From assembly GCA_000004985.1 (NCBI GenBank), contig GG739394.1: a stretch of DNA of 1,523 bases. One strand, written 5' to 3'. Origin of the DNA: Naegleria gruberi (taxonomy: Eukaryota). The notes below the pieces were generated by a model. That model had not been told where the DNA came from and searched no databases. It saw only the letters and a list, made by a program, of their open reading frames with translations. This document shows positions 1-1,523 of the stretch, piece after piece (within the stretch, counting starts at the first letter, position 1; every line of letters begins with the position of its first letter). Position numbers and translations under genes: made by a program.

Positions 1-65
1 GATCGGCTTTTGGATTCTTCCTTGTTCTCTGATGAAGAAGGTTTGGTCTTTTTACTTGGAGGCAT
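1..65 (-). CDS. Putative 5' end of a second minus-strand gene. ATG at 65..63 is followed by MPPSKKTKPSSSENKEESKSR(S), and the frame is still open at the left window edge.
   Basis: Seen in sequence. The reverse complement of 1..75 reads aaaaaaATGcctccaagtaaaaagaccaaaccttcttcatcagagaacaaggaagaatccaaaagccgatc, with an A-rich run directly before the ATG (yeast-type initiation context). The frame is open for all 21 visible codons to position 1. The N-terminus is Lys/Ser/Glu-rich. A promoter-like AT-rich interval with a motif array lies on its 5' side (66..740). Only 21 codons are visible, so statistical support is weak. Confidence 0.3.
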   Translation of the reverse strand, partial: MPPSKKTKPSSSENKEESKSR

Positions 66-216: not shown

Positions 217-223
217 TATAAAA
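217..223 (+). promoter_or_regulatory. Consensus TATAAAA on the plus strand, 19 bp upstream of a small plus-strand ATG at 242 and about 100 bp upstream of the TTTGCGAAA array.
   Basis: Seen in sequence: agacTATAAAAcaag. Orientation and use are unknown. A chance match in AT-rich DNA is plausible. Confidence 0.2.
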
Positions 224-320
224 CAAGATTGTTGAAAAAAAATGAGCTCCTCCACTACCACCACCACAAAAAAGCCAGTCATTCAAATTAAACTCTTGAA
301 AAATAATCGGACGGGTGTTT

Positions 321-427
321 TTTGCGAAAAAATAAAATTTTTTGCGAAATGAAAATGAGCATTTGCGAAAGGTTCAATAATTTGCGAAAAAATTTTAATT
401 AAGCGAATAAATTCTTGTTTGGCGAAA
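321..427. repeat. Phased array of six copies of a 9-bp core TTTGCGAAA (minus strand TTTCGCAAA) with 19-21 bp centre-to-centre spacing. Four copies are perfect (321-329, 341-349, 362-370, 381-389) and two are degenerate (400-408 tAAGCGAAt, 419-427 TTgGCGAAA). It is a likely cis-regulatory site cluster.
   Basis: Seen in sequence. The GCGAA sub-core starts at 324, 344, 365, 384, 403 and 422, giving spacings of 20, 21, 19, 19 and 19. That is about two helical turns, so all copies fall on the same DNA face. The 10-12 bp spacers between cores have diverged almost completely (aaataaaattt / tgaaaatgagca / ggttcaataa / aaattttaatt ...) while the first four cores are identical. This points to constraint on the core rather than a recent neutral tandem duplication. 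Confidence 0.75.
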
Positions 428-740: not shown

Positions 741-1523
741 TTATTTAATAGGTCCAGCAGGTTTTGGTGGTATTTTTCTTCTATTTACTCTTTGTCTAAC
801 AGGTACTATGTCAACTTCCATTTCCGAACCTACAATTTCTAAAGAATGATTGTTAATCTCTGTTTGTGTTTCCGATCCAACAATTTCTAAAGGCTTTTCT
901 TGGCCAACACCAAAGAAATTTGATGAATCAACAATTTCATCTATTTGTGTGTCATCTACATCTTGAGAATTATTTTCTAATTGTTTTTGGCTTTCGTTCG
1001 TAATTGTAGTGTTTTGCTCTGTTAATTTCCAACAATCCAATCCAATAAAATTATTCAAGAATTGTCGGTATTTCACTGAATAATATATCCATTTTTCAAT
1101 TCCTAATCTGAGTTTCACCTTTGTCTTGTCTTTAGATAATTTCACTCCTGTTACAGTTTCATTCTCAGCGGTTTTTATCTTCTTTACATAGGAAGCATCA
1201 CATCTATTCAAACTTTCTTCAATAAAAGCCCAGAAGATCCGTATTTGAGTTTCTTGGTGCTTGGTTTTGAATATCTCTAAATCTATTACATTTTTTCTGT
1301 TTGGTATTTTAATATGTAAGAGAATTTCTTCTCCGTTCTTCACAATACCTACAAGCTCATTTTTGGAAAGAATCAGTTCATCCACAGAACATTGCAAGTT
1401 CTCATCTAAAGGAACGACTTCAATATTGTCATCTACATGTACATGATCATACTTTGTTGTTGGATTAGTAATTGGAATTGGTGGTTTGTGTTTTCTACCG
1501 CACTTTTTCCTTCTCGGGAATTT
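741..1523 (-). CDS. Partial protein-coding gene, 5' end beyond the right window edge and stop TAA at 743..741. It encodes at least 261 aa of a hydrophilic protein of unknown family. Visible N-terminal part is KFPRRKKCGRKHKPPIPITNPTTKYDHVHVDDNIEVVPLDENLQCSVDELILSK... and the C-terminus is ...VRQRVNRRKIPPKPAGPIK*.
   Basis: Seen in sequence. The minus-strand frame is stop-free from 1523 down to 744 (261 sense codons), which is very unlikely by chance in AT-rich DNA where stops are frequent. Hand translation of 1398..1523 gives KFPRRKKCGRKHKPPIPITNPTTKYDHVHVDDNIEVVPLDEN with no stop and no in-frame ATG. The track's start codon at 1397 is TTG, so the ORF caller used alternative starts. Codon usage is A/T-rich and uniform (GAA, AAA, ATT, AAT). 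AATAAA follows the stop on the coding strand (plus 733..738). I recognise no family. The protein has basic clusters (PRRKKCGRKHK near the visible N-terminus, RQRVNRRKIPPKP at the C-terminus), an acidic segment (QDVDDTQIDEIVDSS) and a duplicated LEIVGSE motif. Confidence 0.85.
   Translation of the reverse strand, partial: KFPRRKKCGRKHKPPIPITNPTTKYDHVHVDDNIEVVPLDENLQCSVDELILSKNELVGIVKNGEEILLHIKIPNRKNVIDLEIFKTKHQETQIRIFWAFIEESLNRCDASYVKKIKTAENETVTGVKLSKDKTKVKLRLGIEKWIYYSVKYRQFLNNFIGLDCWKLTEQNTTITNESQKQLENNSQDVDDTQIDEIVDSSNFFGVGQEKPLEIVGSETQTEINNHSLEIVGSEMEVDIVPVRQRVNRRKIPPKPAGPIK
821..892 (-). repeat. Intragenic imperfect direct repeat of about 24 bp, at 821..844 and 869..892 (21/23 identical over ttccgaNccNacaatttctaaag), 48 bp apart. 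It encodes the peptide duplication LEIVGSE(T)...LEIVGSE(M).
   Basis: Seen in sequence. Plus-strand copy A is ttccgaacctacaatttctaaag (822-844) and copy B is ttccgatccaacaatttctaaag (870-892). The offset is exactly 16 codons. The protein reads KPLEIVGSETQTEINNHSLEIVGSEMEVD. Confidence 0.8.

What the first reader, a model, noticed from the sequence alone, without database searches (positions are those of the whole stretch)
321..427. Helically phased array of six TTTGCGAAA cores with diverged spacers in the intergenic region
Four perfect and two degenerate copies of a 9-mer recur every 19-21 bp, about two helical turns. The spacers between them have lost almost all similarity. A neutral minisatellite would accumulate substitutions in core and spacer alike. 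Here there are 0 mismatches in 36 core positions of the first four units against near-random spacers, which argues for selection on the core as a protein-binding site presented on one DNA face. The 9-mer does not exactly match any factor motif I know. It comes within one base of the fungal SCB/MCB family (CGCGAAA / CRCGAAA, bound by Swi4/Mbp1) and fits the loose C/EBP-type bZIP pattern TKNNGNAAK. The array lies about 255-360 bp upstream of the putative minus-strand ATG at 65 and about 315-420 bp 3' of the large ORF's stop, a typical UAS position in a compact fungal genome. This is the most system-like unexplained structure in the window.
Basis: partly seen in the sequence, partly recalled or inferred. 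Interest (0 to 1): 0.6.

Follow-up and report, generated by a model that had tools for sequence, protein, structure and literature searches.

The report
Binding-site array beside a Naegleria transposase gene
The regularly spaced TTTGCGAAA array is real and looks like a protein-docking platform, but it sits in the amoeba Naegleria gruberi just downstream of a Mutator-like transposase gene, so it is more likely a transposon end or control element than a fungal promoter element.

Summary
TTTGCGAAA occurs exactly at 321, 341, 362 and 381. TTGGCGAAA lies at 419 and TAAGCGAAT at 400. The pentamer GCGAA occurs six times in the window, all on the + strand and all in this array, at steps of 20, 21, 19, 19 and 19 bp. 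No dinucleotide shuffle (0 of 5000) gave any CpG-containing 9-mer four times. Spacers are no more alike than random intergenic DNA, so this is not a decayed minisatellite.

The window is a 1523-bp Naegleria gruberi scaffold, not fungal DNA. The large minus-strand ORF is the C-terminal tail of a SWIM-finger transposase of the Mutator/IS256 type. No exact SCB, MCB or E2F site is present, and the loose C/EBP pattern fits only two copies. "One DNA face" holds only for the first three sites.

My best reading (about 0.4) is a transposon cis element: subterminal repeats that load several transposase molecules, as in the Aedes MULE Muta1. The main rival (about 0.25) is a promoter array for the downstream minus-strand ORF. 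The N. gruberi genome could not be reached, so the other element end and the copy number are untested. Interest is modest: a new member of a known kind.

The parts
321..329 (+). core copy 1, TTTGCGAAA (exact)
341..349 (+). core copy 2, TTTGCGAAA (exact), 20 bp after copy 1
362..370 (+). core copy 3, TTTGCGAAA (exact), 21 bp after copy 2
381..389 (+). core copy 4, TTTGCGAAA (exact), 19 bp after copy 3
400..408 (+). degenerate copy 5, TAAGCGAAT (3 mismatches, GCGAA kept), 19 bp after copy 4
   Evidence: The chance of GCGAA falling within +/-1 bp of the expected phase is about 1e-3.
419..427 (+). degenerate copy 6, TTGGCGAAA (1 mismatch), 19 bp after copy 5
741..1523 (-). 3' part (260 codons plus the stop at 741-743) of a Mutator-like (MULE/IS256-type DDE plus SWIM finger) transposase gene. 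The catalytic and SWIM parts lie beyond the right end of the window, on another N. gruberi scaffold.
308..317 (.). CGGACGGGTG, the only G+C-rich patch in the AT-rich spacer, just outside the first core. It is a speculative candidate for an outer boundary or terminal motif of the element.
   Evidence: Read from the sequence. Not tested.
1..65 (-). putative start of a downstream ORF (MPPSKKTKPSSSENKEESKSR...) that runs off the left end. It could be a host gene or a second element gene.
   Evidence: There is an A-rich context before the ATG and stops upstream in frame. Unverified.

Best explanation
The array is a block of six same-orientation protein-binding sites. The invariant part is T--GCGAA, the full form is TTTGCGAAA, and the pitch is 19-21 bp. 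It lies in the non-coding DNA 314-420 bp beyond the stop codon of a Mutator-like transposase gene of Naegleria gruberi. Most likely it is a cis element of that transposon, namely the subterminal-repeat block of its 3' end. Several molecules of the element's transposase, or of another element-encoded DNA-binding protein, would each dock on one core. The roughly two-turn pitch would let neighbours touch, and the multimer would mark and organise the end for cleavage. This is what was shown for the 12-bp subterminal repeats of the Aedes MULE Muta1. Shown here: the array and its statistics, the contrast between core and spacer, the source organism, and the transposase nature of the neighbouring ORF. 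Inferred: that the array lies inside the element, which protein binds it, and that binding promotes transposition.
For: The array is far beyond chance, and only the core is conserved. It is not coding, because 19-21 bp steps are not multiples of 3. It is not a structured RNA: z-scores are -1.16 and +0.77 and Rfam finds nothing. The source is N. gruberi. The adjacent ORF continues protein P0002 (XP_002668419): window residues 1-135 equal P0002 residues 328-462 at 100% identity. P0002 has a SWIM zinc finger above Pfam's cut-off. It has a weak but correctly placed match to the catalytic C-terminal part of IS256-family transposases, E 3e-4, residues 63-186 against profile positions 210-334 of 338. 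It carries, in order, D48, C67xxH70 (+19), W132, TTNYVE158S and SWIM at C252. That matches the MULE/hAT signature quoted in PMC5499845: a (C/D)(2)H motif 15-45 residues after the second D, and a W upstream of the E. There is a precedent in the same superfamily. The Muta1 TIR consists of a 10-bp terminal motif plus 9 copies of a 12-bp repeat separated by variable 3-4 bp linkers. All left/right differences fall in the linkers, more repeats give more transposase complexes, and more repeats give more excision. N. gruberi is reported to carry DNA transposons.
Against: No paralogue of the transposase was found in the protein databases. The gene may therefore be single-copy or even domesticated. The window extends 320 bp beyond the array and holds a plausible ORF start there, so the array is not visibly terminal. 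No terminal motif or target-site duplication can be recognised. Muta1-type repeats have a 15-16 bp pitch and abut the terminus, whereas this array has a 19-21 bp pitch. The first catalytic D and the N-terminal DNA-binding domain of the transposase were not seen. The MULE Pfam model itself did not hit.
Confidence: 0.4

Rival explanations
1. The array is a host or element promoter array. It would be a homotypic cluster of sites for a Naegleria transcription factor, driving the minus-strand ORF that starts at 65. Read on that strand the site is TTTCGCAAA, 256-362 bp upstream of the ATG.
For: The position and orientation fit an upstream activating cluster. The ATG at 65 has an A-rich context and an open frame to the contig end, with stops upstream. 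Only the core is conserved. On the minus strand all four perfect copies fit CRCAAAW.
Against: The downstream ORF is only 21 codons long in the window and is unverified. No known factor motif matches exactly. Promoter clusters rarely show such a strict pitch and orientation together with unrelated spacers. The neighbouring gene is a transposase from a superfamily known for repeat-bearing ends.
Confidence: 0.25
2. The array is an internal transposon array bound by an accessory, element-encoded protein, perhaps the product of the downstream ORF. That protein would regulate the element, for example by anti-silencing, as VANC21 does on the YAGTATTAY arrays of the Arabidopsis MULE VANDAL21.
For: The formal pattern is the same as in VANDAL21: a 9-nt motif in many copies, in one orientation, at high density, in non-coding DNA of a MULE between its genes. 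Every core holds a CpG. CpG density is 5.6 per 100 bp in the array against 1.4 in the rest of the intergenic region. N. gruberi methylates repeats and TEs.
Against: The downstream ORF cannot be identified from 21 residues. VANC targets are parts of true tandem repeats, whereas the spacers here are unrelated. VANC is known only from plants.
Confidence: 0.1
3. The array is the relic of a roughly 20-bp minisatellite with no present function.
For: The period is regular. Many 19-22 bp satellites that happen to contain TTTGCGAAA exist in metagenomes: 62 of 125 arrays found had spacer identity of at least 0.9.
Against: Uniform decay to the observed spacer identity (0.41, equal to background) would leave 27 of 27 core matches with probability about 3e-11. 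TRF sees no repeat.
Confidence: 0.1
4. The array is a set of iterons at the replication origin of an extrachromosomal element.
For: There are direct repeats at a pitch of about two helical turns in AT-rich DNA. The scaffold is very small and unplaced.
Against: There is no Rep-like gene, and the only identifiable gene is a transposase. The coding sequence is shared with an 8.3-kb nuclear scaffold. Nothing similar exists in the viral, plasmid or prokaryotic collections.
Confidence: 0.03
5. The array is a fungal SCB/MCB-type UAS bound by Swi4/Mbp1.
For: TGCGAAA differs from CGCGAAA by one base.
Against: The organism is Naegleria. SBF-type factors were not found outside fungi. The window holds no exact SCB or MCB.
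Confidence: 0.01

Closest known systems
Subterminal repeats of the MULE Muta1 (Aedes aegypti; Liu and Wessler 2017, PMC5499845)
   Same: Both lie in a Mutator-superfamily element. Both are blocks of short direct repeats in one orientation, with conserved cores and variable linkers. In Muta1, more repeats bind more transposase and raise excision.
   Different: [quoted passage not shown] Here the core is 9 bp, the linkers are 10-12 bp, there are 6 copies, and neither the terminus nor the second end has been seen.
VANC21 target arrays (YAGTATTAY) in the Arabidopsis MULE VANDAL21 (Hosaka et al. 2017, PMC5735166)
   Same: [quoted passage not shown]
   Different: The VANDAL arrays are parts of true tandem repeats and are bound by a plant-specific accessory protein. 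Here the spacers are unrelated and no accessory protein is known.
Subterminal transposase-binding motifs of Ac/Ds (AAACGG) and En/Spm (12-bp motif). This comparison rests on my own knowledge and was not checked here.
   Same: These are short motifs repeated in the 200-300 bp next to the element ends, and some contain a CpG whose methylation modulates binding.
   Different: They belong to other superfamilies (hAT, CACTA), and their motifs occur in both orientations at irregular spacing.
Fungal SCB/MCB cell-cycle UAS (Swi4/Mbp1)
   Same: It is also a GCGAAA-containing short motif that can occur in clusters upstream of genes.
   Different: The organism is wrong and the factor family is absent outside fungi. 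There is no exact site.
Plasmid and viral iterons. This comparison rests on my own knowledge.
   Same: Iterons are direct repeats at a pitch of about two helical turns that load several copies of one protein.
   Different: Iterons sit next to a rep gene and an unwinding element in a replicon. None is seen here.

Membership tests
Fungal SCB/MCB UAS (SBF/MBF) | The host encodes Swi4/Mbp1-type (APSES/KilA-N) factors | tested here: not met
   The source is Naegleria gruberi. PMC4862756 found no SBF homologues outside fungi, except in some DNA viruses.
Fungal SCB/MCB UAS (SBF/MBF) | Sites match CRCGAAA / CGCGAAA or ACGCGT | tested here: not met
   There are 0 matches on either strand of the window. 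Each core is one base off.
C/EBP-type bZIP site (TKNNGNAAK) | All conserved copies fit the pattern | tested here: not met
   Only copies 2 and 3 fit (starts 342 and 363). The fit depends on a non-conserved flanking base, and there are 5 further hits elsewhere in the window.
E2F site (TTTSSCGC) | Exact consensus present in the cores | tested here: not met
   There are 0 exact matches. Only the degenerate copy 6 fits the relaxed TTTSSCG.
Minisatellite / tandem repeat | Whole units, spacers included, are similar | tested here: not met
   TRF finds nothing. Spacer identity is 0.41 against a background of 0.335 +/- 0.048.
MULE subterminal-repeat block (Muta1 type) | Belongs to an element that encodes a Mutator-superfamily transposase | tested here: inconclusive
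   The adjacent ORF is the tail of a protein with a SWIM finger, a weak IS256-family match and the D-C(2)H-W-E signature. The MULE Pfam model did not hit, the first D was not seen, and whether the array lies inside the element is unknown.
MULE subterminal-repeat block (Muta1 type) | Short direct repeats in one orientation, with conserved cores and variable linkers | tested here: met
MULE subterminal-repeat block (Muta1 type) | The same repeats, inverted, at the other end, next to a terminal motif and an 8-10 bp target-site duplication | not testable with these tools
   The N. gruberi scaffolds cannot be fetched, and the window ends inside the transposase gene.
MULE subterminal-repeat block (Muta1 type) | Bound by the transposase | not testable with these tools
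   This needs EMSA or DAP-seq.
VANC-type target array of VANDAL MULEs | Dense same-orientation 9-nt motifs in non-coding DNA of a MULE | tested here: met
   for the array, and for the definition.
VANC-type target array of VANDAL MULEs | The element encodes a VANC protein, and the motifs are part of tandem repeats | tested here: not met
   The spacers are unrelated. The downstream ORF is cut after 21 residues, so a VANC-like gene cannot be assessed.
Replication-origin iterons | An adjacent initiator (rep) gene in a replicon | tested here: not met
   The only recognisable gene is a transposase. There are no plasmid or viral relatives.

The most novel reading that the evidence does not exclude
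The array could be the landing pad of a previously unknown sequence-specific DNA-binding protein of a heterolobosean. One candidate is a highly divergent Mutator-like transposase, with no detectable relatives among 1.8 billion representative proteins, that recognises T3-GCG-A3. Another is an element-encoded regulator whose binding depends on the methylation state of the central CpG. Either would give the first defined protein-DNA recognition code and transposon cis element in Naegleria.
Probability: 0.15. Interest if true: 0.5.

Novelty: new member of a known kind. Interest (0 to 1): 0.3.

Why it matters
Almost nothing is known about cis-regulatory DNA or about active transposons in Naegleria and other Discoba. 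A clean 9-bp site repeated six times next to a very divergent Mutator-like transposase is a ready-made probe. It could define the element's ends and show how an orphan MULE recognises its DNA. It could also supply a portable binding module or a transposon tool for a lineage with few genetic tools. If the array is instead a host promoter cluster, it would be one of the first candidate transcription-factor sites in Naegleria. In either case the finding is an instance of a known principle rather than a new one.

Tried and rejected
Structured RNA was rejected: fold z-scores were -1.16 and +0.77, Rfam gave only a chance hit at E 0.23 elsewhere in the window, and there are no tRNAs.

Tandem repeat was rejected.

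Coding repeat was rejected. The steps of 19-21 bp are not multiples of 3, and the only ORF across the array is a 36-codon + strand ORF at 242-352.

A literature search for the 9-mer returned only primers and oligonucleotides.

A metagenome scan for three cores at 10-12 bp gaps returned more than 120 loci. Half are plain 19-22 bp satellites, and the rest are unrelated bacterial or other intergenic arrays. None shares protein or DNA similarity with the window outside the array.

A viral scan for two cores gave 49 loci with nothing related.

Attempts to fetch the N. gruberi scaffolds failed.

Searches for relatives of the transposase found only the two N. gruberi fragments. One search was a parameter error.

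The single-sequence AlphaFold model of P0002 was unusable, with mean pLDDT 33, so no fold search was run.

PDB and plasmid searches were uninformative.

An 11-bp perfect inverted repeat brackets the array, at 297-307 and 438-448. I judged it to be at chance level for this AT-rich DNA and gave it no weight.

Full report
**Observation**

The window contains TTTGCGAAA exactly at 321, 341, 362 and 381 on the + strand. A one-mismatch copy, TTGGCGAAA, lies at 419. TAAGCGAAT at 400 has three mismatches but keeps GCGAA in phase.

The pentamer GCGAA occurs six times in 1523 bases. It never occurs on the minus strand and never outside the array. The steps between copies are 20, 21, 19, 19 and 19 bp.

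In 5000 dinucleotide-preserving shuffles, no CpG-containing 9-mer reached four copies, and only 77 shuffles contained the core even once. Tandem Repeats Finder reports nothing here.

Spacers aligned from either side are 41% identical. Random 10-12-mers from the same intergenic region give 33.5 +/- 4.8% (p about 0.09). The four perfect cores agree at 36 of 36 positions. Uniform decay would give that result with probability about 3e-11.

One detail is overstated. At 10.5 bp per turn the six sites sit at 0, -34, -34, -103, -171 and +120 degrees. Only the first three share a DNA face.

**Where the sequence comes from**

The 260-codon minus-strand ORF (741-1523) matches a single database protein at 100% identity. 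That protein is annotated 'predicted protein, partial [Naegleria gruberi]' (XP_002668046) and is recorded on a contig of 1523 bases, the length of the window. The DNA is therefore a small unplaced scaffold of the heterolobosean amoeboflagellate N. gruberi, not a fungal locus.

An exhaustive HMMER search of 1.8 billion representative proteins found only one more protein. This is P0002 (XP_002668419, on an 8349-bp N. gruberi scaffold). Its last 135 residues are identical to the first 135 residues of the window ORF. The window ORF is therefore the C-terminal tail of a longer protein whose upstream part is seen in P0002.

**What the neighbouring gene is**

- P0002 carries a SWIM zinc finger above Pfam's gathering score.
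- It has a weak but correctly placed match to the C-terminal catalytic part of IS256-family transposases: E 3e-4, residues 63-186 against profile positions 210-334 of 338.
- It shows, in order, D48 (IGVD), C67-x-x-H70 nineteen residues later, W132, TTNYVE158S, and then the SWIM finger at C252.
- PMC5499845 describes this as the MULE/hAT signature: a (C/D)(2)H motif 15-45 residues after the second D, and a W upstream of the E.
- SWIM following the catalytic domain is the usual MULE/FAR1 arrangement. That last point rests on my own knowledge.

The Pfam MULE model itself did not hit. The first D and the N-terminal DNA-binding domain lie outside the known fragment. A single-sequence AlphaFold model was useless, with pLDDT 33. 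I therefore call the protein a Mutator-like (MULE/IS256-type) transposase with good but not complete support. No paralogues were detected, so it is low-copy or very divergent.

**What the array is not**

- It is not coding, because the steps are not multiples of three.
- It is not a structured RNA.
- It is not a minisatellite.
- It does not contain any exact SCB, MCB or E2F site.
- The loose C/EBP pattern fits only copies 2 and 3, through a non-conserved flanking base, and it also hits five unrelated places in the window.
- On the minus strand, CRCAAAW (an MSE-like pattern) fits all four perfect copies. This shows that such short resemblances carry little weight.
- SBF-type factors were not found outside fungi (PMC4862756).

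**Related sequences elsewhere**

The N. gruberi assembly could not be reached. A metagenome scan for three cores separated by 10-12 bp returned more than 120 loci. Half of the arrays are ordinary 19-22 bp satellites with identical spacers. The others are unrelated intergenic arrays, for example in bacterial contigs upstream of OsmC and GNAT genes.

None shares any protein or DNA similarity with the window outside the array itself. Scans of viral and prokaryotic collections for relatives of the transposase found nothing. These results give a useful null: any 9-mer will be found in many tandem arrays in a very large collection. They give no orthologue.

**Most likely mechanism**

The array lies 314-420 bp beyond the stop codon of a Mutator-like transposase gene. 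All sites point the same way, and only the cores are conserved. This is the anatomy of transposon subterminal repeats.

The best-studied MULE is Muta1. Its TIR is a 10-bp terminal motif followed by nine 12-bp repeats separated by 3-4 bp linkers. All differences between the two ends fall in the linkers. More repeats give additional transposase-DNA complexes, a repeat is needed for cleavage, and more repeats raise excision in yeast.

I therefore propose that each TTTGCGAAA core docks one subunit of the element's transposase, or of another element-encoded protein. The roughly two-turn pitch would allow contacts between neighbours, and the multimer would organise the 3' end of the element. The G+C-rich patch CGGACGGGTG at 308-317, just outside the first core, is a possible outer motif, but this is speculation.

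Every core centres on a CpG. CpG density is four times that of the rest of the intergenic region. N. gruberi methylates repeats and TEs. Methylation-sensitive binding is therefore conceivable, but it is untested.

**Rival explanations**

- *Promoter cluster for the downstream ORF.* This is the main rival. The minus-strand ORF begins at 65, and the array would sit at -256 to -362, a normal place for a promoter cluster.
- *Accessory-protein platform.* The array could be an internal platform for an accessory protein, as with the VANC21 YAGTATTAY arrays in non-coding DNA of the MULE VANDAL21.
- *Functionless relic.* This is unlikely given the statistics above.
- *Iteron origin.* This is unlikely given the gene content.

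My confidences are 0.4 for a subterminal transposon repeat block, 0.25 for a promoter array, 0.1 for a VANC-like platform, 0.1 for a relic, and 0.03 for iterons.

**Novelty and verdict**

The general idea of a protein-binding array is supported. The fungal UAS reading is wrong in organism, in factor, and probably in function.

Regularly spaced short binding sites at transposon ends or in promoters are well known. This is a new member of a known kind, found in a lineage where neither transposon cis elements nor transcription-factor sites have been defined. Interest is modest (0.3).

The decisive test is simple but outside these tools. Align the window to the whole N. gruberi genome and look for the inverted array at the other end of the element, for target-site duplications, and for further copies.

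Noticed in passing
window 1119-1523: The coding sequence here is identical at protein level (135 of 135 residues) to the end of a gene model on a different N. gruberi scaffold of 8349 bp (XP_002668419). The model stops exactly at window position 1119. The two small scaffolds overlap but were not merged in the assembly, which hints at a repeat, a haplotype difference, or very low read coverage.
   Followed up: partly
window 821-844 and 869-892: A 24-nt direct repeat, 92% identical and 48 bp apart, lies inside the coding region. It duplicates the peptide LEIVGSE(T/M) in the acidic C-terminal tail of the transposase-like protein.
   Followed up: no
window 297-307 and 438-448: A perfect 11-bp inverted repeat, TGAAAAATAAT / ATTATTTTTCA, brackets the whole array almost symmetrically, with TCT on both outer flanks. 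Matches of this length are about what chance gives in this AT-rich DNA, so I gave it no weight.
   Followed up: partly
window 217-352: TATAAA at 217 lies 25 bp before an ATG at 242, in an A-rich context on the + strand. That ATG opens a 36-codon ORF (MSSSTTTTTKK...) that runs into the first two cores. It may be chance, or a short exon or start of a + strand transcript.
   Followed up: no
L078 1035-1130; L120 13368-13452; L005, L051 3700-3760, L039 4759-4820, L038, L022, L027, L055, L058, L084: These are metagenome contigs unrelated to Naegleria, with GC 0.37-0.41. They carry intergenic arrays of 3-6 units with an exact 21-bp period. Each unit has a conserved 13-mer, TTT(A/G)TTTGCGAA(A/T), followed by 8 fully variable bases. 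In L051 the array lies between a ribonucleotide reductase gene and an OsmC gene. In L120 it lies upstream of a GNAT acetyltransferase gene. The layout of conserved core and variable spacer looks like an unexplained bacterial binding-site array or small repeat element.
   Followed up: partly
L018, L021, L047, L048, L068, L071, L081, L088, L094, L100, L107, L110, L114: Thirteen contigs, many from one metagenome (Ga0315282) and with GC 0.43-0.50, share a conserved non-coding locus. A run of AAAATTGCGA-like 10-bp units is followed by TTTGCGAAA aatgtatgcgat TTTGCGAAA aaaagtatggtt TTTGCGAAA. Its function is unknown.
   Followed up: no
L001 2645-2940 (also L102, L043, L079): These are very AT-rich 19-20 bp satellites, TTTTTTGCGAAAAATAAAT, in metagenome contigs. 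In L001 many units read TTTGTGAAA, the pattern expected from CpG-to-TpG decay. They resemble unit 1 of the window array, but nothing outside the repeat is similar.
   Followed up: partly
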